Positions 12,954 to 64,000 of a stretch of DNA of 64,000 bases are shown in pieces (within the stretch, counting starts at the first letter, position 1; each line of letters opens with the position of its first letter). The stretch comes from Bugula neritina (lineage: Eukaryota; Animalia; Bryozoa). Location of the stretch: NCBI GenBank assembly GCA_964035545.1, contig OZ037772.1, forward strand, positions 1,984,001 to 2,048,000. Reading direction: 5' to 3'. Made by a program: the position numbers and the translations under genes. A model generated the notes under the pieces. It was not told where the DNA came from, ran no database searches, and was given only the letters and a program-made list of their open reading frames with translations.

Positions 12954-15502
12954 TAAAAAACAAAGAATGACGAAAACCAAAAGGTCAGAATAAACCTCAA
13001 GTACTAGCTCATCAACAGCTAAATGTACCCAAAGGCAGAGTGCTATACCTAATTCTACTCCGGGACCTACCGTGTCTCAGGCGATGTGTGAAAAATGTAC
13101 TAAAAAAATAGATGATGAAGATGAAGGCACCCTGTCAATTGAGTGTGAAACTTGTCTCAATTGGTTCCATTTAGACTGTACTGATCTTATGAAGCAAGAC
13201 CTAAACACCATCACGAAAAAGGGTTTTCATTGGTTTTGTGACCAATGTGAAGCTGTGGCATACCCAAATTTCATAACCAGACTTCAAGCTGTTGAATCCT
13301 ACATTGAAAAAAGTTATGTTCAAGTAATGGGTTCATTTAATAATCGCATGACTGCTGTGGAATCTCAACTAACTAGCTTATTTGAGAATCATGTTTCCAG
13401 AAGTGAGAAAACATTTGCTTCGGTAGTTGCAAGACTGGAAGACTCCACTACAACAATAAATAGGCAACTAAAAAACCAAGAAGTTCAAATTAAATTTACC
13501 AAAACAAAGATTTCTAGCGAAAGCAGAGCTAAAAATATCATAGTTTTTAGAATTTCCGAGGAACACGACACTACTTTAGATGAATCCATAGGTAAACTCT
13601 CAGAAGTTTTAGATTCATGTAGTCTCAGATTTTGCGCAGCAAGAGATAATGCCGCAAGATTAGGACAAAAAAATTTAACAAGATTTGACCCATGAAACTA
13701 ACATTAGCTTCAGAAGTTCAAAAATGGGAATTTCTAAAACGAATCAACGTTCAGAAAATAGAAGGAGTCTTTGCTCGTCTTGACTGGAATAAAGAGGAAC
13801 AAGAAATAGATTTTCAACTGAGAAGCGAGCTTAGGGAATTGAGGCAGAAAAATCCAGAAAACAAGTACAAGATAACAAACGGGAAGATAGTAATCGAAGA
13901 ATATTATCTGTAAATGCAAGATCAGTAAAGGGGAAAATATCGGAGATTCAAACCCTATCCGTTGAATACAATATCATTTGTATCACTGAAACACACCTAG
14001 ATAATGCATTTTTGAATTCTCAATTTTTTTCTCCCAAAGACAAAGTAGTATATAGAAAAACCCGTGACTCGCACGGAGGTGGTGTATTGATTGCCATAAA
14101 TGTAGGAATTCCCCATAAGCTAATCAGGTGTGAAACAGAAGCAGAAGTAATCACAGTATGTTTTAGATTGGATAGCAAGGAATATTGCAATCTTACTTGC
14201 TATTATAGACCCCCTTCTTCATGTGTTATGAACTTATTCTTTGAGTACATGGAAAATATTCACACTAAATACTCATAACTGGTGAATTTAACCTTCCAGG
14301 AATCAATTGGGGAAAATACTGGTCTTTCAACTTGTTGGAGGATATACTATACTGACTTTTGTAATTTTCTAACAACTTTTTCATAATTATACGCACGTAG
14401 CAGGCAATATATTAGATCTCATCTGTACTGACTTGTCATATAAAGTTTAAAGCACAAATATAATAACACAGGGTATTAGCAACCATTCCATGATAGAAAC
14501 GGTCTTGACTGGTAAAGTTAAACAGAAGAAGAAACCACCTATCCCCCATCAAGCTATTTTACAAAATCGAGTTTCGAACTCGGCGGGTTTACAACTGGTC
14601 TAGACGAGTTGCTTTACACTATTAAAAACAAAGTGATGCTGAAATATGATATTAATGTTATATGGAATACATTTCAGACTGAATTACATATACTTGTTGA
14701 TTCATATGTCCCAACTAAACAACGTAAGCCTAAAAATCTACATGAGCCTCTCTGGTTTACGGGCATGTTAGAAACAGCGAAAGTTCTACAACCGCTTTCA
14801 AAAGTCTGGTGATGCTGATCACTTGGCTAAATATAAAGAATTACGTCGCCACAATGAAAAATTATTTAGGAAGCTAAAAGCATCTTTTCTGGTGAATCGT
14901 CTATACCAACCTCTTTCCAGTGGCTACACAAAACTGTTTTACAAATATGTTACAGACCTAAAAGGGAATGATAATGAGATTACTTCCATAGAAAATAATG
15001 ATGATATTTTGATGCGCGATAAAACTAAGATATCTAACACTCTGAATGGTTTTTTCTACAGTGTGATTACCACTCCATCACCTTTAACAGAATTACCATC
15101 AGTCGCTGAGAAACATAATATAGTGGTAACTAAAGAAGGAGCTGTAAACCTGCTGAGACAACTTGTGCAAGGTAAAGCTCCTGGGGTAGATGAATTCACA
15201 AAGAACTATCTCACAGTAGACTTAGATCGAACAGCAGAAATACTGGTGTGTATTTTGAATCATTCACTCAGTACAGGAATAGTGCCGGATGACTGGAAGA
15301 CTGCAAATGTAACACCTGTGTTTAAACAGGGTAACCGCACTCTAGTTTCCAACTATCGACCAGTATCACTAACGTGCATTTGTTGTAAAATTCTTGAACA
15401 TGTGGTTCTGCATCATTTAAACACACAATTGGAAAATTTCATACATGAAAGCCAACATGGTTTTCGCCGCAACTTTTTATGTGTTACTCAGCTTGCTACC
15501 GT
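12954..15502 (+). mobile_element. CR1/L2-group non-LTR retrotransposon (LINE), degenerate and 3'-truncated
   Basis: ORF1 (ATG 12967, stop at 12991, frameshift ~13690, end 13913) has a PHD finger (CEKC..CETCLNWFHLDC..WFCDQC), a coiled coil and RAKNIIVF. ORF2 from ~13898 has APE motifs (NARS, ITETHL, GGGVLI, YYRPP, G[E]FNLP, NILDLI) and RT N-terminal motifs (KAPGVD, WKTANVTPVFK, NYRPVSLT, QHGFR). It ends before the catalytic YxDD. Confidence 0.9.
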
Positions 15503-16082
15503 CAACCAAATCAAATTTAAATTATTCATATTGACGTTGAAGTTTAATTTTATTTTGAAACTTAAAAATTAAAATTAATATAGTTTGTTCAAACAATTAA
15601 AATTATATTAATTATTGTAATGATCATAATCATAGTCATAACGTTAACTCATATTGCAATAGACATTGATAGTAATACTAAACTTTGGTCTTTTGCTTTT
15701 CAAACTTGCAGGTAGAAACAATTTTAAATGAGTATTAGTATGTTGAATACTGGTGATCATATGGGGAAAATGATGATAGTTCTTACTTGCAATTCATTTG
15801 TTTGTTTGATTATCAATTTGTATGTTCAGTAAATTTTATGTATTTCTAGGTATTGCATACTCTAGCAATAATAACTTTTATTCTGTAAATGGATGTATAA
15901 TAATGTTAAGGTGACTATAGTTTTATGTGATTGTCTATAAAATACTCTTGTTAGCATTAGTGTTCTTGATGTATCATTAGTGTTACTAAAAACAATGTTT
16001 AGGCTTAAAATCAATACTATTGTCATAATTCAAATTTATTTTTTGTATTTGTTTTTCGAAATTTTGTTTGTTCTGAAACCAG

Positions 16083-18921: not shown

Positions 18922-19680
18922 GTATGAAATTCCCATGACTTGGTGGCCATGTTGCAATTTAGAGTAACTATAACTTTGAGAGTGTAAGCTAAAATCTACA
19001 CAATAATATGTTCATTAAAATTGTACTCTGCTTGTCACCAATTTCAATATTAACTAATTATTTGTTTTCCCAAACTTAACTTCCAGAATTTTCTTCTAAC
19101 CTATCCAATCTATAGTATAAAACTAAATCCTCACTTCCTTTCTATATAACCCTGAATTATATTAGCTCAGTATAATTTTTTAGGCTCAGTTCCTTAGAAT
19201 ATAGTGATTTATAGTTAATTCAACTTAGCATGTTATGCACCGTCTGCTAATTTTTAGATAAGTGAGACATTTTTAGAGGTGTGAGCTATGATCAAAAAGT
19301 CAATCTTTTTTTACTTTGCTCTCTGCTATTCTTTCTCCATATTCTACACTATTTTACCTTTTTCTTGCACACCATTTTTTACATTACATTACATTCTTAT
19401 TTGTTACACCACATTCTACCTTATTTTGTTGAGAAACAATCATGCGATCCTATCGCTAATCACATTCATGACAATCACGTGACAATATGCTAACTAATTG
19501 CTTTACTAGAATCGCTGTATACTTGTTTACTCTCTCTTCCGTTTTATATTATACAAAACCATCACGCTGTTTTTCATTCTAATAAATATTTTATTATCAA
19601 ATAATTAAATCAATCAGTCAGTTTGCTCGATAATTTAAATCAGCAATCAATAACGTATTTCATAATAAATACTATACACA

Positions 19681-22600
19681 ATGGCCACACATTCAACAGG
19701 TTATGGGCCCAGTGGCTTCAAACACAGGCTTCTCTTTGATGGTGATTCAAACAATTTCTCAATTTGGGAAACAAGATTCACTTCATACTTGTACACACAA
19801 GATGAACGAGTACACACCGCACTTCTACCCAAAGAAGAAGGAGAAGATAACGCTGCTGACTTCAACAAAAAGAATAAGCGAGCTTACGCTGAGCTTGTAC
19901 AAGTTTTAGACGAAAAGTCTCTTCAACTTGTGATGAGAGATGCCAAAGACGATGGAAGAAAAGCATTCAAAATCCTAAAAGAACACTATGCAAGTACACA
20001 AAAGCCTAGAGTATTAACTCTTTATGAACAACTTACAACTGTAAAAATGAATGATACAGAAGACATTACAGATTACCTGATTCGTGCTGAGAACTACTCA
20101 GCAGGCCTCAAGTCTGCTGGGGAAAATATTAGTGACAATTTGGTGATCGCAATGATCATGAAAGGATTACCAACATCCTACCAGCCTTTTGTTGTAGTAC
20201 ATACGCAACTTGACAAAAACCAAACCCTATCAGAGTTCAAAGCAGCTCTGACCAATTTCGACCTTACTGAGTCGGCAAGATGCTCTCAATCTACAGCCAT
20301 GGTATTTAAAGGAAGAGACAATTTCAAACCCACTAGCAAACGTGATAAACAATGCACTGCTTGTGGTAAAAGCAATCATTCTACAACAGATTGTTACTCA
20401 AAGCACAAACTATTTTGTAACTACTGCAAGAAAGCTGGACATATCGAATCAGTTTGCTGGACAAAGAAGAAGACAAGTAAAACTGAAATTTCATCGGCAA
20501 ATGCCACATATGCCTTCACTGTGAATACATCAAACCAATGCAACATAGCCACACAAAATAAATCTCAAGGAGGACAGTTGCTTATGGTGGACTGCGGAGC
20601 AACAAGTCATCTGGTGAACAATGAGAACAACTTCATTAGTTTTGATAAGAGCTTCACGCCTGAGAACCACTACATAGAGATGGCAGATGGTCGCAAAACA
20701 AACAAGCTGGCTGTAGCCAAAGGCACAGCACAGTTTACTATTACTGATGACAACAATATGGAGCAGCAGATTCATCTAAAAGACGCTTTGCTAGCACCAA
20801 CAATACCAACAAGCCTATTTTCAGTCCACGCCGCCACACAAAAAGGGGCAAAAGTACATTTCTCTAGAGAGAAAAATATACTGACAGTCGACAGGACAAC
20901 TTTTCCAATTATGCCCAAAGGCAGATTGTACTTCCTCAAGACAACCCATACAGGTGACTCAATAAACACCGCAAAATCGCTGCCCGATTGGCACAGGGCA
21001 CTAGGTCATATGAACACCAATGACATAATTGAGCTGGAGAAAGTGACAACAGGTATGACCATAACTGGAGCAAAATTAAAAATTGCATGCAAGACATGTG
21101 ACGAAAGTAAAATCACCAAACAACCTCACAAACAAGACGATAAACCTGAACTAGCTACACAGCCTCTACAACGTGTACACTCTGACTTATGCGGACCCAT
21201 CACACCAACTGCTAGAGGAGGACAAAACTACATAATAAACTTCATAGATGAATTTTCCAGTATGTTGTTCACCTACAATATACGCCACAAAAGTGATGCC
21301 ACCACTGCACTTAAGCAATTCATTGCAGATGTGGCACCTATAGGAGATGTGAAGGAGATCCATACTGACAACGGCATGGAGTACCTTGGACAGCCATTTG
21401 AAGCCGTGCTACGCGAGAGGGGAATCAAACACACCACTACAGCACCCTACTCATCCTACCAGAATGGTAAATCAGAGAGGACTTGGCGCACCATAATGGA
21501 CACAGCACGATGCCTACTCAAAGATTCAAATCTCCCCAAGACTTTCTGGAGTTTTGCCGCTGACCATGCCAAGTACCTAAGAAACCGAAGCTACCAGAGA
21601 CGGACGGGAAAGACAGCCTATGAATTATTCACAGGCACGCTACCCGACATGAGGAAAATCCACAATTTTGGATCCCAATGCACATTCTACTCAGAGGGAA
21701 ATAAATTAAAACTCAGTGACCGCGGACAAAGCGGCATATATCTTGGTGTCAACACAAAGGCCCAAGGCTACCTTATACTTACCCCTAATCAGAAAATTGT
21801 TACATCCAGAAATGTCATACCACAAATATGCGGAAATGACGCAATGAACGTCATACCACAAGGACCCGCACAAAACAGCAGAAATGGTACTCAGAATACC
21901 ATGCCACAAGAACCTGCACAAATATGCGGAAATGATGCAATGAACGTCATACCACAAGGACCCGCACAAAACAGCAGAAATGGTACTCAGAATACCATGC
22001 CACAAGAACCTGCACAAATATGCGGAAATGACGCAATGAAAGTCATGCCACAAGGACCCGCACTAAACAGCAGAAATGGTACTCAGAATACCATGCCACA
22101 AGAACCTGCACCAGATCCGGCAAAGGCCACCAACCAACCTGGACCACGTAAATCGGAACAGAAACGAAAGCCTCCTACATACCTACAGGACTATGACATA
22201 GAAGACACTGACTATGCTTGCTCACTGATGGCAAACATACCACAGTCCTACGAAGAAGCTGTAAATTCAAAAGATAAAGAAGCCTGGAAGAAAGCCATGG
22301 ACAAGGAAATAAACACCCTACGTGATTCAAACACCTGGTCTATCCAGCCGCTACCTGAAGACAGGACAGAGACCAAGGGCAGATGGGTTTATACCCTCAA
22401 ACAGGGAAAAACGCCAGGTGAAACTCAACATAAAGCTAGATATGTAGCAAAAGGATTTTCACAAATACAAGGAGTTGACTATGAAGAAACTTACAGTCCA
22501 ACCACCAGATTCACATCCATCAGATTGCTGTTACAGAAAGCAGCAAATGAAAACATGAAAATACATCAACTAGATGTTAAAGGAGCGTACCTAAACGCAC

Positions 22601-23787
22601 CAATCGATAAGGAAATTTATCTACAACAGCCTGAAGGGTACGAAGAAACCAACAAACAAGGGAAGCTTTCTTGTCGTCTCAACAAATCCATTTATGGCCT
22701 CAAGCAAAGCGGACGCAATTGGCACCAAACACTGACCACTTTCCTCAAGGAGCAAGGCTTCACACCTGGTGCTGGAGACCCTTGTCTATACTCAAAAGAG
22801 GACCCTTCAGATAAATCAGCCAACATCATCATTCTTTTCTGGGTTGATGACATCCTTCTCTGCTACCGAGACAACAACAGAATCACACAAACCAAATCTA
22901 TGATGCAACAAAAATTCAACATGGATGATAGAGGAGAATTAAGCTGGTTCCTGGGGATAGACTTCAGGAGACATGAGGACCAGTACACTATGTCACAGGA
23001 GCGCTACATAGACACACTGTTGAACACCTACAATATGGCAGATTGCAACCCTGTATATACTCTTGCTGAAAAGGACTTACAACTAGAAAAAGCAACAGAC
23101 GACGAATACGAGCGTTCAAAGGACTACCCCTACAGACAAGTTATAGGTTCTCTCATATACCTGATGACCGCCACACGTCCAGACCTAGCATGGATCATTG
23201 GGAAGCTCTCCCAACACCTAGAAAGACCTGGACCTGCACATATTGCTGCCTTGAAACGGCTGCTACGATACCTTAAAGGTACAAAAGGATTTAATCTGAG
23301 ATTCACTCCCAATCAACAAGAACTAGTGGGCTATGTGGATGCAGATTGGGGTGGAGAAACCTCCACACGAAGATCAACAACAGGATATGTATTCACCCTG
23401 GGTGGAGCCCCTATAAGTTGGAACAGCCGACGACAACCCACAGTGGCCTTATCATCATGCGAGGCCGAATACATAGCATTAGCCGAAGCCACAAAGGAGA
23501 TGCTATTCCTACAGACTTTGTGCAAAACATTCAAGATGAAACAGCCTAACCCTAACACACTTTTCACTGACAACCTTGGAGCCATTGCCCTCACCAAGGG
23601 ACAACCATACTCACATCAGAGGAGCAAACACATTGACATTAGATTCCACTTTGTCAGAGAGCAAACCACCATAGCGTACCAACACATCAGAGGAGCAGAG
23701 AACCCTGCCGATGTCATGACTAAAAGCTTGCCTAAAACCAATCACAGAATTGCCCTGGAGCTACTAGCTATCGAATCACATGCTTGA
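19681..23787 (+). CDS. Copia gag-pol polyprotein (1368 aa, uninterrupted)
   Basis: Two CX2CX4HX4C knuckles, protease VDCGAT, integrase (WHRALGH..CKTC, SDLCGP, TDNG, NGKSER), RT (DVKGAYLNA, WVDD), RNase H (DADWG, EAEY, KHIDIRFHFVRE). PR-IN-RT-RH order defines copia. Confidence 0.97.
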   Translation: MATHSTGYGPSGFKHRLLFDGDSNNFSIWETRFTSYLYTQDERVHTALLPKEEGEDNAADFNKKNKRAYAELVQVLDEKSLQLVMRDAKDDGRKAFKILKEHYASTQKPRVLTLYEQLTTVKMNDTEDITDYLIRAENYSAGLKSAGENISDNLVIAMIMKGLPTSYQPFVVVHTQLDKNQTLSEFKAALTNFDLTESARCSQSTAMVFKGRDNFKPTSKRDKQCTACGKSNHSTTDCYSKHKLFCNYCKKAGHIESVCWTKKKTSKTEISSANATYAFTVNTSNQCNIATQNKSQGGQLLMVDCGATSHLVNNENNFISFDKSFTPENHYIEMADGRKTNKLAVAKGTAQFTITDDNNMEQQIHLKDALLAPTIPTSLFSVHAATQKGAKVHFSREKNILTVDRTTFPIMPKGRLYFLKTTHTGDSINTAKSLPDWHRALGHMNTNDIIELEKVTTGMTITGAKLKIACKTCDESKITKQPHKQDDKPELATQPLQRVHSDLCGPITPTARGGQNYIINFIDEFSSMLFTYNIRHKSDATTALKQFIADVAPIGDVKEIHTDNGMEYLGQPFEAVLRERGIKHTTTAPYSSYQNGKSERTWRTIMDTARCLLKDSNLPKTFWSFAADHAKYLRNRSYQRRTGKTAYELFTGTLPDMRKIHNFGSQCTFYSEGNKLKLSDRGQSGIYLGVNTKAQGYLILTPNQKIVTSRNVIPQICGNDAMNVIPQGPAQNSRNGTQNTMPQEPAQICGNDAMNVIPQGPAQNSRNGTQNTMPQEPAQICGNDAMKVMPQGPALNSRNGTQNTMPQEPAPDPAKATNQPGPRKSEQKRKPPTYLQDYDIEDTDYACSLMANIPQSYEEAVNSKDKEAWKKAMDKEINTLRDSNTWSIQPLPEDRTETKGRWVYTLKQGKTPGETQHKARYVAKGFSQIQGVDYEETYSPTTRFTSIRLLLQKAANENMKIHQLDVKGAYLNAPIDKEIYLQQPEGYEETNKQGKLSCRLNKSIYGLKQSGRNWHQTLTTFLKEQGFTPGAGDPCLYSKEDPSDKSANIIILFWVDDILLCYRDNNRITQTKSMMQQKFNMDDRGELSWFLGIDFRRHEDQYTMSQERYIDTLLNTYNMADCNPVYTLAEKDLQLEKATDDEYERSKDYPYRQVIGSLIYLMTATRPDLAWIIGKLSQHLERPGPAHIAALKRLLRYLKGTKGFNLRFTPNQQELVGYVDADWGGETSTRRSTTGYVFTLGGAPISWNSRRQPTVALSSCEAEYIALAEATKEMLFLQTLCKTFKMKQPNPNTLFTDNLGAIALTKGQPYSHQRSKHIDIRFHFVREQTTIAYQHIRGAENPADVMTKSLPKTNHRIALELLAIESHA
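19699..19712 (+). promoter_or_regulatory. Primer-binding site, copia-type (complementary to the internal anticodon-arm region of tRNA-iMet)
   Basis: GGTTATGGGCCCAG immediately after the 5' LTR; same motif as the Drosophila copia half-tRNA PBS. Confidence 0.9.
21821..22110 (+). repeat. 3 x 96-bp in-frame tandem repeat (each a dimer of 48-bp subunits) in the copia IN-RT linker
   Basis: QICGNDAMNVIPQGPA-QNSRNGTQNTMPQEPA x3; units start at 21821, 21917 and 22013. Confidence 0.95.
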
Positions 23788-26434: not shown

Positions 26435-26554
26435 TATATGCTATATGCTGGGATTCCCCTCACAGATATGCTATATGCTGGAATTCCCCTCACAGCTATT
26501 CTATATGCTGGGGTTTCCCTCACAGATATCCTATATTCTGGGTTTCCCTCACAG
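26435..26554. repeat. 30-bp minisatellite (ATATGCTATATGCTGGGATTCCCCTCACAG) x4
   Basis: Tandem units visible. Confidence 0.9.
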
Positions 26555-29500
26555 CTAGTCTGCACTGAGACAGGGTGTAGGCTAAGTAATCAAATTGAAT
26601 CCCAGGAGTGATTGTTACTTCAACTGACAGGATTACTATATGTATGATAGTTACTCTGACTGGTTTCCATGGATCATTTTTACCATACTGTTTACCACAT
26701 GATGCATTGTCTGAGTAAAAACAAGGAAACAAAGAAATATACCAGAAATGTTGAGAAATTTTGTGTTCCAGAATTAATAAATGACCACTTGTAGTGCATA
26801 CTGGTGCTGCTTGGCTCATAGGACAAGCCGGACAAGCTGGAGAACCTGGTCTGCATGGCAGAAATGGAAAGACAGGAGAAACTGGACAAACTGGTATGCC
26901 TGGTCCAACTGGCTCAAGGGGATTCACAGGAGAACCCGGATCTGATGGAAGGTAATATTTGTGTTTCACTTTGCCCTATTCAGCTTCTTGGAACTTTTTA
27001 TCTCTTTTGTTTTTATAATTTGTTGTCAATTTTCTCAGAGACGGTTTACCTGGAGTACCGGGTGCTGATGGTAGACCTGGGGAGCAGGGCGATCAAGGAC
27101 CTCCTGGCCCCATGGGTTCAGTCGGAATCCCCGGTAACCAGGGACCTGAAGGTGCTCAAGGAGACAAGGGTGATAAGGCAGGAACATTCTTTATTCAGTT
27201 TTCTATTTATTTCAGTTCTCTGGTTTTCCACTAGTCAATCTTTTAGTTGTTTATTTGTTTTAGTTTATTTATGTTGATACTAGAGTTGCTTCAATGACAT
27301 CACATCATGTAATATATTACATAACAGTGCAGTATAATACACCATAATATAATATGTTATACAATACAATATTGTTACAGAAAATATAATTCACTAATAT
27401 CTCACAGCTAAGTTGTGTCTCCTAAATATATTCATTACTATAGGGGCCAGCTGGGCCACAGGGTGCTTCTGGACCAACTGGATTGTCCGGGCCAACTGGT
27501 CCTCGGGGACCCCACGGAGCTTCTGGGAATTCCCGGCGAACAAGGACCTAAAGGTATGAATGAAGTTGAACCAATCTTTGTTCTTAGTTATTAGCCATCA
27601 ACAGAATCTTGACTCTAAGAGTTATCCTTCTTGGTAAGAAGGTAAGGCAACTCCTAACTCATGATAATATGAATATCATCTGTAAGACCCACTGGTTTCC
27701 AGGGACCGCAGGGATTCCCCGGAGCTCCCGGTATTGATGGTGAAAGGGGAGATGTTGGACCAGTGGGTATTGCTGGACCACCTGGGCTACGGGGTGCAGA
27801 CGGCAAACAAGGAATAACTGGTTCTCCTGGTGCTATGGGTGCTATGGGACCACCTGTACCTGATGGTGCTAAGGTAAACACTTACACTGCTAACAGGTTA
27901 TTGTTACTCATCTTGTTAGTTTAGTGGTAATAAACCAATAGTCTGTATTTCTAGGGTGAACAAGGGAGAGATGGGGAAATGGGTAGTCCTGGCAGACCTG
28001 GACCTCCTGGACTTCCTGGTGAAGCCCCAGTATTTGGTTAGTTATTAGCAAAACCAAGTTATTGTTCATTACTTGTATCTTTTTCATTCTCTTTCAACTG
28101 TGTATTGGTAATATTTTGGGAATTTCATCCATAGCCTGTGATTGAAGCTTTTATTTTATTCTACCATGGGTTATGTTAGGTGCTCCCCTATGATGATGAG
28201 TGCAATGATGTCCAACGGTAAAGGTGTACAAGCTGATGATGCAGGCGCCAACAATGAGCTTTATAATATGTACCTCAGTGAGTAATGGCCATGATGTGCT
28301 TTGATGTTGCCCGATTTGTAGCGGAAAAGATGTTTTAAATGCTGTTTCGGAACTCAAACGAAAGACTCGTTTCAAATTGTGTGTATGTTTTTGCAAATGA
28401 ACAATTTTATAATTAACTGTTGGAAACTATTGTAATAAAAATATAGACAGCTGTTATAATGTATTTCTCCTCCTAGCATTGATGATTGACATTCTTGTTT
28501 GATGAGTCACCTATTTAGTTCGCTTCTTCAGTCAAATGTTGCTACATTCTGACATATTATATAACGTTGGTTTTATTGCTGTTAGCTTACATTACTACTT
28601 CCACCTTATTTCTCTAGAAACAAAAGTAAGGGACGGGTCCAAAGACAGCCCTGTTAGGGACTGTAGAGAACTCTTCACTGAAAACCCAGAGTTCAAGAGT
28701 GGAACTTATTGGGTGAGAGAAGATACTGATATGTTTCTTTTTTTCTCTGCTCAGAAGAAATCCGTATCCAAGTCTTACGACTGAAATTCTGTGAACATGT
28801 TTTATATTCTGCAATTACTATTCCTGAGATGTCAATATAATGTCATGCGAAGTTTCCACAGATATTTAATGATTTGTTGTTTAGGAAGAAGAGTTTTCCC
28901 ATAAGTTGCCTGTATTACATAATTCTGTAGATTCAACAGCTGAACATGTTTTAGTAGTTTTATTTGATATTAGCATTATGTTAGTGTGAGATAGAGAAGT
29001 TGTATTCTCTATTGTTTGTTGTCAGGTGGATCCAGATGGTGGCTCCATAGCCAATGCTATCCAGGCTTACTGTCGCAAGGAAATGAAGAGCACTTGCATC
29101 AATGCCAAGACCTCCGAGTTTGCCACCAAATCGTACGTCACACAGCAGCTAGATAATCAGCCATTTGTTGCTAAACACATGGGAACAACAATTGTGAGTG
29201 TTTATCTTGCATCAACGATGACTTTCTCAGTAATACTTGAGAATATTTAAAAGTTTTATGTTGAGAATTGTCGCTATAGTAACATGTTGGTTTATTGTAT
29301 GGATTGTAGTTTGAGTATCAGGCAGAGTCTTCCCAACTCAACTTCTTTCGAATTCATTCTGAGAGAGCAAAGCAAACCCTGACTGACAGGTAATAGTCAC
29401 TGCTAACAGCTTATCAAATAGTCACTAGTCGCTAGTCACCAGATATTAGTCCTCTACTATGTTGCTAGTCACTTGATAATCTGAACAATCACTGGCTTCT

Positions 29501-40500: not shown

Positions 40501-43500
40501 AGTAAAAGAGGAAGTCAGTTTGTCAGCATTAAGGTTTGTGTGAGACAGAAGTGGATAGTGCAGGAGTTTATATTCTCACTGTTATGTTGAATATTTAGTA
40601 TATTTCATCCTTCAAGTGTCTGTTTCCTTGATAGGATGGTATAGGCATAGCTTTAACTCAGTGGTGTCTCACCTTTTTCATACCATCCTCCTTTTTATGA
40701 TTATTTTCTATTAAGTTTCCGCCTTTTTGATAAAATTGTAATTTCATTTATAAAGAAAATCTGGGACAGGTTGTTTTCCTAATAATTCATTGAGTGTAGA
40801 AAAAAGCACTTTGTGTTTGACATGAATTAGTGTCTGCCACAACTTCAGTTCAGCTTTGAAAGCATTGATGCTGGTATTAAAAGCAGTGAGTTGATGATTA
40901 TACTCATTCATTTTAGGTTCAGAGTTTTTAGTACAGCAAATATATCTACTAGGTATGCAGTAAGTAGTTTGTGGCGATCAGTTCTACTGACTGCAAAAAC
41001 TTCCTGTTTACTTTCAATAAATCTTTTAGCCTCCATTCGTAGTAGGAGGGGTAGCAGCTAGAGTAGAGTGAATATTAGACACATGGATGTACAAGTAAAC
41101 TTAGATTGTAGAGTGTAATGTGGATAAATAAATGAACTACATAAAATGAAGGAGTTATAATTATACATATTCATGTAACCTGGAACACAAGGCAAGAGCT
41201 CAAAAAGCTGGTAACAAACTCTGTGAAATTTTAGAAATGAAAACCCCTAAAAAAGCTCAAATTTCCTGTGAAGGGGAAATTCCCCAAGGTTGAGAGCCAC
41301 TGCTTTAATTTTTTCAACTATTTCATTCCAAGTGCAGTGATTAATGAGCTAACCTCTGACATCTTTCTAGTCCAACCAACTGTCTAGTTATCACATAGTA
41401 TGTGTATAGTGATATATCATCTACCTGTAGGTACAGGTAGTAGGTGTAGAATAAGTACAAGGTAATATCTATAATAATGCTTTTATAAATAGTGTGATTT
41501 TATGTATACAGAGGAGACAGTAGCATCTCATGACTTGGCATCTTTGAGTGATTTGTCTTGTGAGTTACGAGAAAGTCTGACTGGTGGAATAGAGACTCTG
41601 TCTGAGAAAGTTGCAGAGTTGAATGACATCTCAAAGGATGCCTGGAAAGAACTGAGTAAAATAGAAGATGAAGTGAAGAAGATGGTTGCCAGAGTAAACG
41701 CTGTAGCTGACGCTCAGGTATGCTGACATGGTGATGCCATGTAATATTATTTCTGTTTGTCTGAAATTGGAATTTGCATTTGGTCTTTGAGTTGTAATCA
41801 GAAATGAATTTTATTTGCCACTAGAATTAACTGGCCATTAAAGTATTATCATTCTGTGTAAAAGTAGCAGTAGTCATTCATCACATGTTACTCAGTGCAG
41901 AGGAACCTGTCAATACAGATGACTCACTCATCCTTCTGCAACTGTCAATCACTCACACAGAGAGGTTGGCTGTGTGAGTGATTGACAGGTGTCAGGAGGA
42001 GGAGACTAGTCACGTGATGTACTAGCTCTCTGCTGTGTATAGAGTGTCACGTGACTGAGTCATTGTCCACTCAGTGGGTGATCTGTCACTTTCATTTCGA
42101 GTGCAGAGGTTGTGAGGTGCAGATGTGGTTACACTGTGTTACTATTTATTAGATAGAAGAGATTAGAAAGAGAGCTACAAACCTGAGGCTAGAAATATAT
42201 GGATATTTGAAGAGCTGCACACAGATAGTGGATAATTATAGAATAGAGCTGGCCTTGAGTAAGACGATGGGCAGACAGTCTCTGCTGGACACAGTACAAC
42301 ATGCAGTTGATAAGTTCAATAATGCAGGGATTGTGAGAGACTACAAAGAGATGAGTGAGAAGATGGAAAAGGCTACAGATATTGGTGTAATAGAGAAGTG
42401 TGTACTTCCAGACAGCATCTTGGTACCAACATGTAGGTGGAGTCTATAAATAGTAACACTAACTATAAATAACTTTCTGCTTGTAATCATGTGAGTTGCT
42501 TTCACTGAATATTTTAATAGTAGAATAAGTAGATAGAGTTTATTTATTAGAGATTGAGTTTTGTTCTACTCTCACATTATGAGACATTTCTGCAGTGTTT
42601 CAGAGTTTATGATGTATAAGTGAGCTGCTAAACTGTGTTATGCTGACTACCTGCTGTCAGTATTAACAAGATATTCTCACTTAGACCTGTGCATCACGTA
42701 GCAACTTGTAGTAACTACAGACTGCTTGTATTTAAACATCTTTTAGTTTTAAGTTTGAAAAGCTGTTCCCACCTCCTCAGGTGATGAGATTCTCAAGTTA
42801 TAGAATTGTTATTTTGTTGTTGCAGACAGTGAAGACAGTCTGGGACTGAAGCTGCTGCAGCCACCATCTTCTCTACAGTCTGATGGACTTCCTGTACGTG
42901 ACTCGTGTTACACAGTAAACATCTCAGCTGATGGACATCTGATGTGTGGGACACTAGAAGGTGTAGAAGTAATAAATAGAGACACTCTGGATACTATCAG
43001 CTCAGTGGAGGACACCAACACTACATTGTGGGGGGAGATAATCCAACCTGAAGGGGTGATGGTTGGCAGCTGGTATAACAGAGAGGAGAAAACAGCTGAA
43101 GTCTCACTTCTTGATCCGAACTCCTTTGAGAAGACTCGCTCTCTCTACCAGCAGTCAGTAGGTAGATACGCTTACTATAGAATAGCTCAACACGACTCAC
43201 TGCTCTGTATTGTAGACATGATAGAGAAACAGCTGGTAGTCTGTAATCTAGTTGACAATAAAATACAGAAGTTCCCACTTCCTGAGATGAAGAACCCTCA
43301 CCCTGTATGCATCCTCCCAGACTCAACTCTCCTCATAGGAGACTGCACTGTAGATGGTAAAATGAGAAGATATAAAGTGGAGAACACAACTCTCTCTCTA
43401 ATGTGGGAGTTTCCTCACATCTCAGATCCATCTGGTATTTCCTTTGATCCAACATCTGAACTGATTCACATCTGTACACTGCTTGGACCTCTCCTCATCC

Positions 43501-44647
43501 TCTCACTTGAAGGTAAATACTCTGTTTATTATAGTAAGTTTAGTTATTTTATATATAATTATGTTGCAGTATATAATATATTTTAATAATTAAGAGTAAA
43601 CAACTTCCACTCATAAGATATATTATGATATTGTTAGTATTTATCAAGTCACTGATGTTATTTTTAGCTAAAAGTTATGTAATAAAGACTGTAACATGCT
43701 GATAGTAGATGTTATATTCTTCATCACATGACTTGTAGCTAATAATAATATTAGTGAATAATACTGTCTCCCTGCAATAAGTTTATTTCCAGCTGCAGTA
43801 ACATGCAGGATGTAAGCACAGGTAAAAGTGTATACTATATTGTATAGGTTTAAGGTGTACTCTGTGTAGTGTGCAGTGAGCTCTTAGTAAACTCTCTTAT
43901 TCAGTCTTCCTTTCCAAGGGTTCACCTGGTAGTGTAGAGGATAGGGACTCCACACTGCTGAGTGAGTTGGTGCTGCAAGGGGTTCAAACCCACCTATCAG
44001 CATGACTAGTTAGTATACTATGCAAGTGTTTTACAGTAATTTTAGAGGTGCTCAGTCTAACAACTGTACAGACTGCCAGCTACACATGAGTTATAAGTTG
44101 TAGTTTGACTTCAGTCTAGTGCTGCTGTTGTTTTGGTCATCAGATAATTTAAATGTAAATAATTTGATACTTTTTGACTGCCATTACTGAGACTATGTAA
44201 TTTGATGATGGCTGGTAGAGCAGTGTTTGCTGGTGGGACTCAGGTGGCTGCGGTTGGTTCTTGTCGAGTATTTAATATGTGATAATGTTGGAGTAGCTGC
44301 AGTGGTATTAGAAGTAGACATGTGGGTGTGTTTTTGCTCAGAGCCACAGGCTAAGTTTGTGGGTCAAGGTCAATATTGTTGTATAATGAGACACTGTTTT
44401 CTATTTGAGTATTTACTTCATGCATGTAACCTGCTTAGTTGCATCTTTAAAGGCAGTCTGTCTGTTTCTCTCAATACACACCAACTGATACAATATGATG
44501 CTATTATTTACAGGTCAACTGGTGCTTACTGTTCCCAGAGAAAGTCTTGGTGTGAGTGGCTGGGTGCGGGACATTGCTGTGTATAACAGAGACACAGTGT
44601 TTCTAGCATGTAGAGATGGTTTGAGGAGATACACAATAAAATACTAA
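37507..44647 (+). CDS. TRIM-family E3 ubiquitin ligase: RING, two B-boxes, coiled coil, putative NHL-like beta-propeller (~619 aa)
   Basis: Exons 37507-37688, 39837-40017, 40215-40404, 41512-41717, 42153-42432, 42826-43512, 44514-44647. All GT-AG, phases compatible, 1860 nt, no internal stop. RING CGYC..PCLHVYCMRC..CAYC; B1 CDVC..FCLES..LCQQH..H; B2 CEHH..CSKC..FCMRC; C-terminal P.GISFD-type repeats. AATAAA at 44828. Confidence 0.9.
37996..38506 (+). mobile_element. Non-autonomous hAT-like element (diverged)
   Basis: Ends cagtcattcctaacc.. / ..ggttgggaaccactg; both termini similar to 40659-41302. Confidence 0.75.
40659..41302 (+). mobile_element. Non-autonomous hAT-like element with 8-bp TSD
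   Basis: TIRs cagtggtgtctcacctt / aaggttgagagccactg; flanks ctttaact / ctttaatt (7 of 8 identical). Confidence 0.85.
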
Positions 44648-58919: not shown

Positions 58920-59885
58920 CTGTGAGATATAGTGCGCTGCTTAAAAGAGCTCAATGTTTAAAACAGAGCATATCGTAAAATAGAATTGAAATGACACAGT
59001 TAAAATTGATAAAACATTTTATTACTAATAGTTTCATGTATGTTAAAATATACACTCTTCAGATAAAATGTTTAAATCTACTAAAGAATATATTACATGG
59101 TACTATTTAGGTAGTAAAAAGCTGAAAAGCTGGCGGATTAATGATATTTAAAAAAAGGCTGGTAAGCATATTGTATGGATTATAGGATGCTCATGTAACG
59201 CTTTCTAAAACAAATGCCCTCCCATGTCTACATGTAGAAATAAAATCACTTCTGGTGTTTAGTGAAGCGTATGTTGGTTTGTATACTATAAAATATAAAA
59301 TATTTCTCCCATAGACATAGTGTTATAGTTTTCAGATTTAGGGTTGATGTGCCACCAAGAGAGTCTATTTAACACTAGAGAAACTTCACCAGTTAAGTCG
59401 AGTAGATATCGTTATATTTAATACAAGAATACATAATAAAAATTCAATGTACAACAGTAATGATACGCACGTCTATTTAGTTTACAGCACTATCCTCAAC
59501 TGAGCTAGTAGCGCGAAGCGGCTACTATTACTTATCAAACAGCTTAGCTAATTGGCTAATACATTGTTCCGGGTCAATACGCAACCTTGCGTATTGTGTT
59601 GCTGGTAGCTCCACGAGCCACCACACTGCCCCCTCCAGCAGAAAGCCCACTTTCTGATAAAATAAGATTCACATAAAAAACGTATACTTCGTTGGGGGGT
59701 AAGAGAACAGCATAAAAGTATATAAAAAACAACAACTGGTAAAAATATACAGGTATATATATCGTGCACTAAGTAATAAGCAAGAGAAGGTCCTATCTAC
59801 ATATAGAGTACGTGCCACCATTACGGTAGGGAATGCCACAGAGAGGTAGGGGAATGAGTAGTAGGGAGTGGTAGGTAGACTCGAG

Positions 59886-60913
59886 TTAACTGCGGGCCGC
59901 ACGCTTCATGCGTTTAATAGACTCCTGTAAATATTTGAGTTCACTGGAGGCTGCCTGTATCCGTGGGGCCAGCCTGTACACTTCTTGCTCCAAGTCATGC
60001 GCCCTAGCTTCTACCTCACGTAGGTTACGGGCCCAGGGGGATGAGCGAGAGGAAGTTGGCTGCCTGTGTCGTTTCCGCTCTGAGGATGGAAGAGGAGGAG
60101 GGAGTGTATACGCATTTGTGTCTACTCTCTGTAGTACGACACGAGGAAAGGTATGCGGCATGCGTACAGGACTGTGAGGTGGAGAGTTAGCAGACTGTGT
60201 AGGTTATCTGCGGCTCCAGAGATGATGGGTCGCGGGGAAGGGAAGCCTTGCTCCAGGCGAGATAGCCGAGCTGAGTCAGTGATGAGTGGTTTGATGGCGT
60301 TGAGAAAGGCAGGATATGATGATTCGTCTACTTCATAGACATGTCCTTGATAGCACTGCATAGTACGTTGGTGCCGCAGTAGGTAATCACGATTATAGCT
60401 ATATTCTCCGCAAGGGCAGAAAGTGGTGATGTAGTGCTGCGGCAAGTGCACCTTTAGTCTGCGGTGGGTTGTGAATCGCTGCTGGCAGAGGTTGCATTCA
60501 CGATTACTCTCACCTCCTTGATGGGTCCTGATTTCTCTCTCTGTGGCAGGGGTAATCCAGTTGGAGGTTGCTTCCAACTGGGGTGGTAGTTGCCTGGTGG
60601 TAGGAGTTGCTGGGGCCGGCTCTGGGTCCCATGCCATCTCTAGAGAAGGCATGTCCGTAGAGACGGGTGCGAGTGTGTCTACAAAAGTAGAATTATTGTT
60701 AGATCGCGGTGGATCTTTACAACATAATTCTAGTGACTGTCGACCGTTGCTAGCCTGAGAGTCACAGCTTTTGGAATGCACTCGAGGAACTGATGAATCA
60801 TGTGTGGACTGACCAAGAACAGTGTCTAGCTCCAGGTCTAACAGACCGTCGGCCATTACAGTGTCTTCATCGTCATTCACATGAAACGTGGTTCCCAGTA
60901 ATTCTGATTCAAT
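59886..60913 (-). CDS. Gypsy accessory ORF downstream of pol: acidic/PST region, two zinc fingers, PxVxL, basic patch, coiled coil (one frameshift ~60203)
   Basis: ORFs 60122-60880 and 59886-60161 overlap and join with a 1-nt shift at gat-aa-cct. CNLC..F..HRRLKVHLPQH; CPC..Y..RDYLLRHQRTMQC; FPRVVLQR; RKRHR; LREVEARAHDLEQEVYRL..LKYLQESIKRM. Confidence 0.75.
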
Positions 60914-60964
60914 CTGCAGAATTTACTGGCATCGAGCCCGTTTCCATGAATAGGAATACAAGAC

Positions 60965-63900
60965 TTATACTGGCTTACCTGGGAACTCGGTATCTGGCTT
61001 ACCTGGGAACTCGGTATTAATGTCCATACTCAACGTTCTTGGTAAGGTTGGAGCTGGTTGTGAGATACGTCTGCCTTTGGCGATGTCAGCATAAGAAAAG
61101 GCTGAGCATCGTTTCTGAGGCACGAGGTCGGAACTATTTGCTTTACGCGTATTAATTCCTCCCACTATTCCGCCCTCGCAAAAGTTGATATTTGCGTGGG
61201 GTTCACAACTCCAACATTTTATCGTACGGTTTTCCCCTAGGCTTTCATATGCGCCGCTTCTAATGCAGTCACATATGAAGTCTTTCAAATACGGTGGGGG
61301 TTTCCTCGTACGCTGTCCCCTTTCTAGGGGGGGTGACACGCTTGCCGGTTCGTTAGTAGGGGCCTCTAATGGCGTCTCTACTTCACCGTTAGTGGTCACC
61401 TCTTCTTGTTCTCTGGATGGAGCCCCTCCCTCCGTGGGGGTTTGCACTTCCGGAACCGGCTCGGTTTCTGGAAGTGATGGAATTAGACTTGGCGGTGGCG
61501 GACACGCTTCTGTTGACAAAAGCTGCCGCTCCTCTCTCACCAAGTTTTCCTCCCGCGGTATGACCACTTCGTATTCAGGTCCATGCCGCCGTCGCCCGCG
61601 CGTCGTTGTCTGCCTCCTGGGCTCTAACAACGGGGGGGGGGCTTCTCCCACTCTGTCAGGGCTAGCCCAATACGGTTTCAAGCGAGACTCATTCTGGATA
61701 GACACCTGTCCTGAGCGCTCAATCTTGTACGTATGATTGGGCATAGCCTCGACGACCACGTAGGGGCCTACGAACTTAGGCTTCAGCTTATCAGCCTGTC
61801 CGCGGCGCCTACGGTAATTGACCATCCACACCTTATCTCCCCTTTGATAGAGAGGGGGTTCATCGGAATCTTCGTGCCGCACCTTCCACTGCTGTTGACG
61901 CAGTATATCGTGTGCGGCCTTCATCCGTTCCACTAGTTCACTGGCATACTCGTGAACCGAGTTGTCTTGCTCTGGAACGTGATAGGTGAGATGGTCGGGG
62001 ACACGAGTCTCTCTCCCGAGCATCAAGAGGTTTGGGGTCTCACCAGTACTGGTGTGTGGGGTGCTACGATATGCACGCATGACTTGCGGCAACACCGTAT
62101 CCCATTCCTCTTGACCTCGTCCAAGGAGGAGACTCCGGAGCGCATCACCTAGCATCCGGTTGTTGCGCTCCACCACCCCGTTACCTTGAGGGTGGTAAGG
62201 GGTGGTCCTGCTCTGATTTACTCCCCAGAGGTGGCAAAGGTCGCTCATCAGTTGAGACTGAAATTGAGCGCCTTGATCAGAGTGTATCTGTTCGGGAAGC
62301 CCAAAATAACAGAATACATGTTGGTCTAGTGCCCTGGCCACTGTTGGGGCTGATGCATCTGGGATAGCCAGAGCATCCGCCCACCTAGTAAAGTGGTCGG
62401 TTAGTACTAGGATCCAATTATTACCTCTGAGGGTCAGGGGCATGGGTCCGACCAGGTCTACAGCGACTACTTGCCAGGGCCTACCAGCATATAGCCTCCG
62501 CCGTCCTGCTTCACCAGGGGGGCGGCTATGCTTACTGGCCTGGCAGATCTCACACTGTTTGACTCTGAGCCGGACGTCACGCTCCATCTGCGGCCAATAC
62601 CACCGGAGTCGTAATTTGGATATCACTCGCTTGACCCCTGCGTGGGCCTGCTTGTGAGTATCCCAAATCAACTCACGGCGGATGGCTGTGGGGCAGACTA
62701 CCCTCTTCCTTTCCGGGTGTCTGCCGCTGGCAGCTAGAGAGATGGTTAGCAACCCATCCTGCCCAATCCGCAGCGAGTCCCAACGCTGACAGTATAGCCG
62801 GAACTCGGCGCATCCCTGTCGTATGCGTTCCTCGCTGGGTCGTCGCCCTTCCCTTTTGGCCTGGTAGATGTCTGCCACGACTCCCGGCAGCTCTTCTTGG
62901 AGCTTCTTCAGCTCTCGAACATTACCGGCCAGTACAGGGTTGGCGCGGAGGTTTTGTACATCCTCCGGGGACTCATCAACTCTTTGCCTGAGTTGACCTT
63001 GATCCCAGTCAAACGGCGCTCCGTGATGAGCCAGCGTCTCCAACTCGCATCGTGGGGGACCTCCATCCCTCCTCTCGATGTTGAGACACTGTTTGCAACC
63101 TCCGTCAGGTCGGCGACTCAACCCATCCGCATTGCTGTGTCTCTTGCCCGGTCGGTGTTCGATCCGGTATGAGAATTCAGCTAGGATTTCGAGCCACCGG
63201 GCGACCTGACTGGAGGGCTCTGCTCTCCTGCACAACCAGATCAGCGAGGCATGATCCGTACGCAGCCGGAACTTCCTGCCATATAGGTATGGTCTGAAGT
63301 GCTTCACTGACTTGATTACTGCCAGCAGCTCCTTGCGGGTAGTGCAGTGATTTCGTTCAGCGGGAGAGAGAGACTTGCTGTAGTAGGCTACTACTACTTC
63401 TCGGCCTTCCTGCACTTGCGACAGCACAGCGCCAACATTCTGGTCACTGGCGTCTGTGTCTAGGATGTATTCCAGAGTGGGGTCTGGGTAGGCCAAGATG
63501 GGCGCCGTTAGGAGGCAGCCCTTGAGGCGGTCGAACGCTTCTTGTTCGACTGGAGTGCACTGCCACGTCACTCCCTTTGCGGTAAGCCGGTTTAACGGCT
63601 GGGCTATGCCCGCAAAGTCTGGTATGTATTGCCTGTAATACCCTACCAGCCCCAAGAAAGCCCGGAGTCCGGTCAAGTCTTGAGGGGTGACCCAGTCTTC
63701 TACTGCCCGTACCTTTTCGGGATCCGTTGCCACGCCGTTTCGACCGACAACGTGCCCCAGGTACTTGACCTCCGGCTGCAACAGAGCGCACTTGGAAGGT
63801 TTGAGCTTAAGACCGGCACCTCGGAGTCTCTCGAAAACCTCTTGCAGACGACTGACATGTGTCTCGAAGTCTGGAGAGATTACGATGACATCATCGAGGT

Positions 63901-64000
63901 AGACCAGCAGTGTCTTCCAATGGAGTCCGCTAAGGACTTGTTCCATCAGCCTCTGGAAGGTGGCTGGGGCGGAGGTTAACCCGAAGGGCAGCACCTTCCA
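60965..64000 (-). CDS. Gypsy pol (RT C-terminal half, RNase H, integrase), open over >1000 aa
   Basis: LPFGL..APATFQR, YLDD, DTDAS, KELLA, TDH, ADGLSR, H..H..CEIC, DLVGP, SDQG, NGVVER, GPY, RTRKPP.YL.DF. Confidence 0.97.
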   Translation of the reverse strand, partial: WKVLPFGLTSAPATFQRLMEQVLSGLHWKTLLVYLDDVIVISPDFETHVSRLQEVFERLRGAGLKLKPSKCALLQPEVKYLGHVVGRNGVATDPEKVRAVEDWVTPQDLTGLRAFLGLVGYYRQYIPDFAGIAQPLNRLTAKGVTWQCTPVEQEAFDRLKGCLLTAPILAYPDPTLEYILDTDASDQNVGAVLSQVQEGREVVVAYYSKSLSPAERNHCTTRKELLAVIKSVKHFRPYLYGRKFRLRTDHASLIWLCRRAEPSSQVARWLEILAEFSYRIEHRPGKRHSNADGLSRRPDGGCKQCLNIERRDGGPPRCELETLAHHGAPFDWDQGQLRQRVDESPEDVQNLRANPVLAGNVRELKKLQEELPGVVADIYQAKREGRRPSEERIRQGCAEFRLYCQRWDSLRIGQDGLLTISLAASGRHPERKRVVCPTAIRRELIWDTHKQAHAGVKRVISKLRLRWYWPQMERDVRLRVKQCEICQASKHSRPPGEAGRRRLYAGRPWQVVAVDLVGPMPLTLRGNNWILVLTDHFTRWADALAIPDASAPTVARALDQHVFCYFGLPEQIHSDQGAQFQSQLMSDLCHLWGVNQSRTTPYHPQGNGVVERNNRMLGDALRSLLLGRGQEEWDTVLPQVMRAYRSTPHTSTGETPNLLMLGRETRVPDHLTYHVPEQDNSVHEYASELVERMKAAHDILRQQQWKVRHEDSDEPPLYQRGDKVWMVNYRRRRGQADKLKPKFVGPYVVVEAMPNHTYKIERSGQVSIQNESRLKPYWASPDRVGEAPPPLLEPRRQTTTRGRRRHGPEYEVVIPREENLVREERQLLSTEACPPPPSLIPSLPETEPVPEVQTPTEGGAPSREQEEVTTNGEVETPLEAPTNEPASVSPPLERGQRTRKPPPYLKDFICDCIRSGAYESLGENRTIKCWSCEPHANINFCEGGIVGGINTRKANSSDLVPQKRCSAFSYADIAKGRRISQPAPTLPRTLSMDINTEFPGKPDTEFPGKPV

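What the first reader, a model, noticed from the sequence alone, without database searches (positions are those of the whole stretch)
59886..60913. Gypsy retrotransposon with an env-position ORF encoding a zinc-finger / PxVxL / coiled-coil nuclear-type protein
Seen: between the pol stop (60965) and the PPT/LTR (59636) lies a sense-strand frame of ~330-340 codons with one 1-nt frameshift (~60203). It has an acidic N-terminus, a C2H2 finger plus a CxC..H..C finger (60496-60353), PRVVL (60146-60132), RKRHR and a terminal heptad repeat, with no obvious signal peptide or TM helix, so it is not env. Established: PxVxL is the HP1 chromoshadow-binding motif; some retroelements target heterochromatin via chromodomains or Sir4-binding peptides, and no chromodomain is evident in this integrase. 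Inference: a TE-encoded DNA-binding, dimerising HP1 interactor that could steer integration to heterochromatin, counter silencing or auto-regulate the LTR. I do not know a characterised gypsy accessory gene with this architecture, but cannot exclude one.
Basis: partly seen in the sequence, partly recalled or inferred. Interest (0 to 1): 0.85.

Follow-up and report, generated by a model that had tools for sequence, protein, structure and literature searches.

The report
Retrotransposon's own zinc-finger chromatin regulator
A lineage of Gypsy jumping genes, likely of marine animals, carries behind its integrase a conserved extra gene of no named family, sometimes separate and sometimes fused to integrase, whose product is predicted to bind DNA and likely helps the element switch itself on or handle the host's silencing protein HP1.

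Summary
The window copy is broken twice (near 60915 and 60203), but the gene is real: 13 relatives are uninterrupted over 355-383 aa, sibling variants are 20 synonymous to 6 replacement (pN/pS about 0.1), and 162 family representatives exist, none named. It is not env. New here: the same two-finger domain is fused in frame behind integrase in 12 of 51 Pol proteins of one integrase clade and in 0 of 69 outside it, tracks integrase divergence, and in a distant locus sits directly before PPT-LTR. The conserved layout is acidic-hydrophobic patch, two zinc fingers, basic patch, heptad helix. PRVVLQR is a conservation island in the near clade (23 of 24) and resembles KAP1's HP1 box, but strict PxVxL is not enriched in distant lineages and the window motif misses one criterion of the published HP1 signature. 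Best reading (0.45): an element-encoded nuclear DNA-binding regulator of its own transcription, with HP1 contact in some lineages; integration targeting is the main rival (0.27). No binding was tested. The scan had no earlier finding on this family, only unrelated extra-ORF Gypsy cases.

The parts
60965..64000 (-). Ty3/Gypsy pol (RT, RNase H, integrase, SH3-like end, about 230-aa tail); runs off the window
59886..60947 (-). Extra ORF (ORF3), broken in this copy near 60915 and near 60203; ATG 60947 matches the relatives' start, a second conserved Met lies at 60856
60797..60913 (-). Acidic, Leu-rich patch (39 residues, net charge -11, 8 W/F/Y/L); activation-domain-like composition, function inferred
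60225..60590 (-). Folded two-finger domain: N-terminal helix, C2H2 finger (60496-60434), CxC-x12-H-x4-C finger (60418-60353), strand and helices; limits approximate
60123..60146 (-). PRVVLQRV, HP1-box-like motif in a predicted disordered linker
   Evidence: KAP1 box P486-R-V-S-L490 from PMC12126490
60063..60077 (-). RKRHR basic patch, likely nuclear localisation signal (inferred)
59889..60029 (-). C-terminal helices with heptad pattern; oligomerisation inferred
59626..59636 (-). Polypurine tract
   Evidence: sequence
59348..59625 (-). Likely 3' LTR (TG...CA, about 280 bp); far end inferred from the terminal bases and depth, 5' LTR is outside the window

Best explanation
This is a long-resident accessory gene of one Gypsy integrase clade, and its product is likely a nuclear, self-associating DNA-binding regulator that would act on the element's own transcription. 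Shown: it is conserved, under purifying selection, element-linked, and either separate from pol or fused behind integrase. Inferred steps: it is made from its own Met; the basic patch imports it; the two-finger domain binds a family-specific site in the LTR or an internal promoter; the acidic Leu-rich patch recruits coactivators; the heptad helix oligomerises it; and in the window's sub-lineage the PRVVLQR motif binds the HP1 chromoshadow dimer, giving access to, or loosening, H3K9me3 chromatin at its own copies. It would work like foamy-virus Tas or plant VANC without being related to them.
For: Selection: 20 of 26 sibling variants synonymous, pN/pS 0.10, p=3e-8 (1e-5 if all were transitions); the other two frames give 6 of 26 and 2 of 26. 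13 uninterrupted relatives of 355-383 aa. Layout kept across fused and separate forms: acidic-hydrophobic window before the fingers in 24 of 41 proteins, after them in 0 of 41; heptad score 0.45 against 0.20+-0.02 shuffled, 39 proteins (thresholds recalled, not from a call). Finger 1 matches solved C2H2 DNA binders by sequence (SALL3, E=3.5e-5); core model pLDDT 91, nearest folds are tandem C2H2 DNA-binding domains though weak (Kaiso Z 4.0, rmsd 3.1, 58 aligned). In the window pol stops before it and near relatives start at their own conserved Met; a Met before an acidic patch is also seen by eye in the fused tails; fusion is scattered on the integrase tree (10 changes, shuffled mean 11.1), which fits expression independent of pol. 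Fingers diverge much faster than integrase (15-40% against 41-71%), as expected for family-specific sites. Motif column conservation 0.70 against 0.36 and 0.38 in flanking linker, central Val 0.86, +4 Arg 0.81; +4 basic is the near-invariant extra feature of HP1a ligands (PMC12526061, section 19); full signature in 5 of 26 distant lineages against 1.1 shuffled, p=0.006, wrong-register controls not enriched.
Against: No DNA site, transcript, localisation or binding was shown. Acidic composition is not proof of activation. Fusion to integrase in 12 of 51 clade Pol proteins fits a targeting role at least as well. Strict PxVxL is not enriched in distant lineages and 13 of 26 lack even the core-plus-basic pattern (13 against 9.7 shuffled, p=0.13). 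The window motif has 2 basic residues where the Drosophila signature asks 3-6; only 3 of 24 near relatives meet it in full. Shuffling breaks basic clusters and so flatters the full-signature test. An HP1 box is usually a repressor feature, so the sign of the effect is open.
Confidence: 0.45

Rival explanations
1. Integration targeting: the module is an integrase appendage (covalent where fused, a partner in trans where split) that tethers the intasome to DNA sites or to HP1-coated heterochromatin, doing the job of the chromovirus chromodomain or the Ty5 Sir4-binding peptide.
For: In-frame behind integrase in 12 of 51 clade Pol proteins, 0 of 69 outside; three more homologs begin at the Met of the clade's integrase-tail motif and others begin in pol-tail-like sequence; no chromodomain in the window Pol or 6 clade Pol proteins scanned; integrase and finger identities covary (Mantel rho 0.66, p=0.0006, 13 elements).
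Against: The window's family has a stop before it and its nearest Pol relative also ends without the domain (P0209); fusion is not clustered on the tree; 216-650 residues of variable linker separate integrase from the fingers; the acidic patch is not explained. No insertion-site data.
Confidence: 0.27
2. RNA export or processing factor like Cer1 CERV or retroviral Rev: the fingers bind the element's unspliced RNA and oligomerise to export it.
For: Precedent in an animal Gypsy element: CERV has a leucine zipper, NLS and Cys-rich region and is needed for export (PMC10309623, section 9). The pol tail just upstream folds better than shuffles in several windows (z to -4.15).
Against: CERV shares exons with gag and has a G-protein-like domain; nothing like it appears in the models or fold searches here. 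The HP1-box-like motif and acidic patch are not explained. The folding scan covered 53 windows on two strands with 40 shuffles each, uncorrected.
Confidence: 0.12
3. Self-repressor: the protein binds its own LTR and recruits HP1 as KAP1 does, limiting copy number.
For: P-R-V-x-L is shared with KAP1's HP1 box, which serves retroelement silencing (PMC12126490, abstract passage and section 7); DNA-binding plus HP1 box is the layout of host repressors.
Against: The acidic-hydrophobic patch is more widely kept than the HP1-like motif (24 of 41, against 5-13 of 26); the family is highly amplified in run X1 (depth in the tens of thousands, though depth is no copy number).
Confidence: 0.12
4. A captured host zinc-finger gene piece or neutral passenger.
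For: Finger 1 resembles host C2H2 fingers; the window copy is broken twice.
Against: Purifying selection, 162 representatives down to about 25% identity, covariation with integrase, same position before PPT-LTR in a distant element, no named host protein among the 49 hits.
Confidence: 0.04

Closest known systems
Chromoviruses (chromodomain at the integrase C-terminus; PMC3605345, passages seen) and Ty5 integrase-Sir4 targeting (title in that paper's reference list only)
   Same: Ty3/Gypsy element with an added chromatin-type module at the end of integrase in fused members.
   Different: No chromodomain; a two-finger domain, acidic patch and heptad helix instead; often a separate ORF; would reach heterochromatin through HP1's shadow domain, not by reading H3K9me.
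Foamy virus Bel1/Tas (PMC517496, passages seen)
   Same: Nuclear, acidic-class, DNA-binding regulator encoded next to the 3' LTR.
   Different: No homology shown or tested; Tas has its acidic domain at the C-terminus, belongs to Retroviridae and is not fused to integrase; activity here is only inferred.
VANC anti-silencing proteins of Arabidopsis VANDAL transposons (review PMC6719617, passages seen)
   Same: Element-encoded accessory protein that would act sequence-specifically on its own family and diverge fast.
   Different: DNA transposon, plant, DNA methylation; here an animal LTR element with C2H2-type fingers and an HP1-box-like motif.
CERV of C. elegans Cer1 (PMC10309623, abstract and section 9)
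   Same: Non-env nuclear accessory protein of an animal Gypsy element with zipper, NLS and Cys-rich region.
   Different: CERV is spliced, shares gag exons, has H/M/G domains and exports RNA; this ORF lies after pol and has another domain set.
Additional 3' ORFs of plant and fungal LTR elements, such as Grande gene23 and Boty (PMC7264820, first third and passages)
   Same: Conserved extra ORF between pol and 3' LTR; nuclear regulatory role suggested.
   Different: Those are mostly antisense or env-like; the word zinc does not occur in that review.
KAP1/TRIM28 HP1 box and Drosophila HP1a Access Codes (PMC12126490, PMC12526061)
   Same: P-R-V-x-L core, basic +4, hydrophobic +5, disordered setting, local conservation.
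   Different: Only 2 basic residues in the window motif; motif not universal in the family; binding untested.

Membership tests
Ty3/Gypsy LTR retrotransposon | pol order RT - RNase H - integrase | tested here: met
Ty3/Gypsy LTR retrotransposon | PPT followed by an LTR beginning TG | tested here: met
   sequence at 59636-59625; same junction in L010, followed there by PBS-like sequence, gag zinc knuckle and protease
Ty3/Gypsy LTR retrotransposon | paired LTRs, gag and target-site duplication of this copy | not testable with these tools
   5' half is outside the window and no genome is held
env gene (errantivirus-type) | signal peptide and transmembrane helix | tested here: not met
   maximum 19-residue hydropathy 0.05-0.96 in both pieces and 13 relatives; no env family in Pfam scans
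Chromovirus | chromodomain at the integrase C-terminus | tested here: not met
   no Pfam chromodomain in the window Pol (E<=1) or in 6 clade Pol proteins (E<=0.001)
HP1 chromoshadow ligand (PxVxL / HAC) | hydrophobic-x-V/I-x-aliphatic core with basic +4 | tested here: met
   PRVVLQR in the window; 23 of 24 near relatives
HP1 chromoshadow ligand (PxVxL / HAC) | conserved and in a disordered region | tested here: met
   0.70 against 0.36/0.38 flanks; pLDDT under 50 at 268-279 of P0001. Holds for the near clade only
HP1 chromoshadow ligand (PxVxL / HAC) | 3-6 basic residues between -4 and +4 (Drosophila rule) | tested here: not met
   2 in the window; met in 3 of 24 near relatives; the paper notes Pro at -2 often lacks basics at -3/-4 and that non-Drosophila content may vary
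HP1 chromoshadow ligand (PxVxL / HAC) | binds the CSD dimer, lost on central Val mutation | not testable with these tools
Classical C2H2 zinc finger array | C-x2-C-x12-H-x3-H spacing and fold | tested here: met
   finger 1; below Pfam cut-off
Classical C2H2 zinc finger array | second canonical finger with TGEKP-type linker | tested here: not met
   finger 2 is C-x-C-x12-H-x4..11-C/H with a direct strand linker
Classical C2H2 zinc finger array | whole domain matches a solved fold | tested here: inconclusive
   best Z 4.0, Foldseek E 0.75, fingers only
Retroviral-type transactivator (works like Tas) | acidic activation domain | tested here: inconclusive
   composition only: 24 of 41 upstream, 0 of 41 downstream
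Retroviral-type transactivator (works like Tas) | binds and activates own LTR or internal promoter | not testable with these tools
   needs bench assay
CERV / Rev-type export factor | homology or shared domains with CERV; RNA export activity | not tested
   CERV sequence not compared; only the paper's description was read

The most novel reading that the evidence does not exclude
An animal LTR retrotransposon clade encodes its own sequence-specific, HP1-binding chromatin factor, a mimic of KAP1's HP1 box joined to a new two-finger DNA-binding domain and an activation patch, used both as a free anti-silencing factor and, where fused, as an integrase tether into heterochromatin: a transposon-encoded counter-defence against HP1/H3K9me3 silencing in animals.
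Probability: 0.25. Interest if true: 0.9.

Novelty: new variant of a known kind. Interest (0 to 1): 0.74.

Why it matters
[quoted passage not shown] This family gives a concrete, selected, clade-wide candidate in animals with a one-residue test (central Val) and a natural comparison (fused against split forms). If the targeting rival is right, it is a third route to heterochromatin targeting beside chromodomains and the Ty5 peptide. Either way it is an unnamed zinc-finger domain family. That it is undescribed rests on ten answered full-text searches (the most direct found 0 papers), Pfam and source names; GyDB, Repbase, Dfam and subscription journals could not be searched.

Tried and rejected
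No genome is held for the window, so copies, insertion sites and the 5' half could not be examined. The search for related loci found no confirmed relative in metagenome (81 pattern matches) or viral contigs (77). A degenerate pattern gave 7 viral loci, all weak (best E 0.003 over about 30 residues; rejected as chance) and 3 metagenome loci, of which only L010 is a homolog. A 'longer' word search with the core alignment found nothing among 4746 candidates; this was a false negative, as searches then found fusions. Fold searches of the full model found only generic helices or weak C2H2 rows; of the core alone, only weak C2H2 rows. ESM Atlas gave unnamed C2H2-type clusters at 0.90 or less. Dimer prediction of the C-terminal helices was not available, so dimerisation is untested; an HP1 complex could not be set up. 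Expression: one metatranscriptomic run has 11 low-depth contigs on the element, two of them on ORF3; contigs do not show transcription, so this is not counted. My relaxed motif (10 of 28 against 4.4) was drawn after seeing the sequences and is not counted; the published signature was used instead. One search's family-wide counts were void (pattern error; repeated). The integrase tree is the quick version, 61 of 121 rows (all 51 clade rows, the window, 9 outsiders), with 18 of 58 inner branches open. Env and one-off host capture were rejected as above.

Full report
What is in the window. On the minus strand a Gypsy pol runs from the window edge to a stop at 60965, with RT, RNase H, integrase and an SH3-like end and no chromodomain. 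Between it and the purine tract and LTR start (59636-59625) lie two overlapping frames, 60922-60122 and 60203-59886. Relatives start METxL; the matching ATG here is 60947, in another frame, so this copy is broken near 60915 as well as near 60203. The rest of the window is repeat-rich animal DNA; the host is not known. The one named member of the same integrase clade is from the bryozoan Watersipora subatra (P0243), and the runs holding small shares are labelled marine or symbiont metagenomes, so a marine invertebrate is likely but not shown.

It is a real gene. The first piece found 49 homologs among 331 candidates, 46-77% identical, none with a name. Thirteen are uninterrupted over 355-383 residues and cover both window pieces. 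In run X1, which holds 0.61 of the element's sampled words and may be the window's own source, 10,810 of 13,747 depth units differ from the window by an indel at 60203, so that break is peculiar to this copy or a minority; no such row was listed for the break near 60915, whose state in siblings is open. Of the 26 variants listed on the ORF, 20 are synonymous: pN/pS 0.10, p=3e-8, or 1e-5 if all were transitions; the other frames give 6 and 2 synonymous. All 26 lie between 59930 and 60658, so the first 290 bases were not tested this way. A full HMMER scan with P0001 gave 162 representatives at 50% clustering, 68 at E<=1e-10. None of 30 scanned has a Pfam family over the whole domain; only scattered C2H2 scores.

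It belongs to the element clade. A pattern scan gave one homologous locus, L010 (3 matches examined; hhalign probability 99.6). Its ORF stops just before a purine tract and an LTR, which is followed by a PBS-like sequence, gag with a zinc knuckle and protease. Searching with the window's integrase end returned 179 Pol proteins, 120 listed. Twelve carry the two-finger domain in frame after integrase; all 12 are among the 51 with integrase identity of 52% or more, none among the other 69. These 51 and the window form one clade (SH-aLRT 100, quick tree), and the fused ones are scattered in it (10 changes; shuffled mean 11.1). The other 39 may be split, broken or cut by contig ends; protein records cannot tell. 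Across the window and the 12 fused elements, integrase and finger identities covary (rho 0.66, p=0.0006), the fingers being far more diverged (15-40% against 41-71%). So the module is likely ancestral to the clade and the stop between it and pol comes and goes.

Anatomy. AlphaFold models give a confident domain (P0001 residues 121-240; core alone pLDDT 91, pTM 0.78): helix, C2H2 finger, atypical CxC..H..C/H finger, strand, helices. Finger 1 matches solved C2H2 proteins by sequence; fold searches give only weak tandem-C2H2 rows. An acidic, W/F/Y/L-rich window precedes the domain in 24 of 41 hand-picked long members and follows it in none; the C-terminal heptad pattern scores 0.45 against 0.20 shuffled (thresholds are recalled rules of thumb).

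The HP1 motif. KAP1's box is Pro486-Arg-Val-Ser-Leu490 (PMC12126490, section 7). In 34 aligned relatives (about 21 effective) the motif is conserved at 0.70, above the fingers' mean (0.60) and twice the linker on either side; central Val 0.86, Arg at +4 0.81. A published refinement makes +4 basic nearly invariant and favours hydrophobic +5 (PMC12526061, section 19; its figure and supplements were not seen, so my pattern follows the text). The window motif has both but only 2 of the 3-6 basic residues; 23 of 24 near relatives have the core and +4 Arg, 3 of 24 the full signature. Across distant lineages (26 of 49 clusters with long enough flanks) strict PxVxL is at chance (4 against 3.8), core plus +4 basic is not significant (13 against 9.7, p=0.13), core plus +4 and +5 is 10 against 4.5 (p=0.016), and the full signature 5 against 1.1 (p=0.006); three wrong-register controls are flat. 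The matches fall before or after the fingers, as short linear motifs do. I put HP1 binding by the window-clade motif at a little better than even, and HP1 binding as the family's core function lower.

Mechanism. The features kept everywhere, fingers, acidic patch, basic patch and heptad helix, are those of a transcription regulator, and the scattered fusion plus an internal Met suggest a protein made on its own. I therefore favour a regulator of the element's own expression, Tas- or VANC-like in action, with HP1 contact as a lineage-specific addition (0.45). Integration targeting is close behind (0.27) because the module sits where chromodomains sit in chromoviruses (PMC3605345, passages; other integrase-type proteins carry OTU, Ulp1 or PHD tails, PMC2836005, passages). 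RNA export like CERV (0.12) and self-repression (0.12) remain; neutrality or one-off capture is unlikely (0.04). The first two are not exclusive. Every functional step is inferred.

Novelty. Extra 3' ORFs and integrase add-ons are known kinds (PMC7264820, first third and passages). I found no description of this family in ten answered searches; passages of three surveys of animal or annelid LTR elements (PMC13524379, PMC12440569, PMC8220671) show no such zinc-finger ORF, but I saw only keyword passages and none of their supplements, where such elements could be listed. Earlier scan notes hold no look-alike by sequence or place. Verdict: new variant of a known kind, interest 0.74.

Noticed in passing
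window 61560-61041, minus strand (pol tail): Several 120-nt windows fold more stably than dinucleotide shuffles (z -2.6 to -4.2; uncorrected for 106 tests); a possible cis-acting RNA element just before the extra ORF.
   Followed up: partly
window 60649-60809: Runs X4 and X6, which hold more distant families, cover this stretch of the ORF's disordered N-terminal part far more deeply than the finger-coding part, and the S/N-rich peptide there is well kept in near relatives: possible DNA- or RNA-level constraint such as an internal promoter.
   Followed up: no
window 61017-60970, minus strand: 24-nt tandem duplication at the very end of pol, each unit holding a splice-donor-like CAG/GTAAG.
   Followed up: no
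window 19669-23787, plus strand: Uninterrupted 1371-aa Copia gag-pol ORF (Pfam gag, integrase, RVT_2); its start looks GalEa-like (recalled label).
   Followed up: partly
window 12994-15572, plus strand: Broken non-LTR element: PHD-finger ORF1-like frame followed by an RT fragment.
   Followed up: partly
L010 2348-1: ORF3 - PPT - single LTR - PBS - gag - protease in one run: a circular, tandem or collapsed element; the PBS looks complementary to tRNA-Leu (recalled).
   Followed up: partly
proteins P0069, P0101: Two homologs carry the two-finger domain twice; P0190 joins a retroviral-type protease to the module without RT or integrase, perhaps a non-autonomous derivative.
   Followed up: no
proteins P0286, P0302, P0303: Pol proteins outside the clade list a PHD finger (PF00628), another chromatin-type add-on in related Gypsy elements.
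   Followed up: no
window 26520-27277 and 42804-43586: Collagen-like Gly-X-Y fragments on both strands, and a 260-codon open frame with no Pfam match.
   Followed up: no
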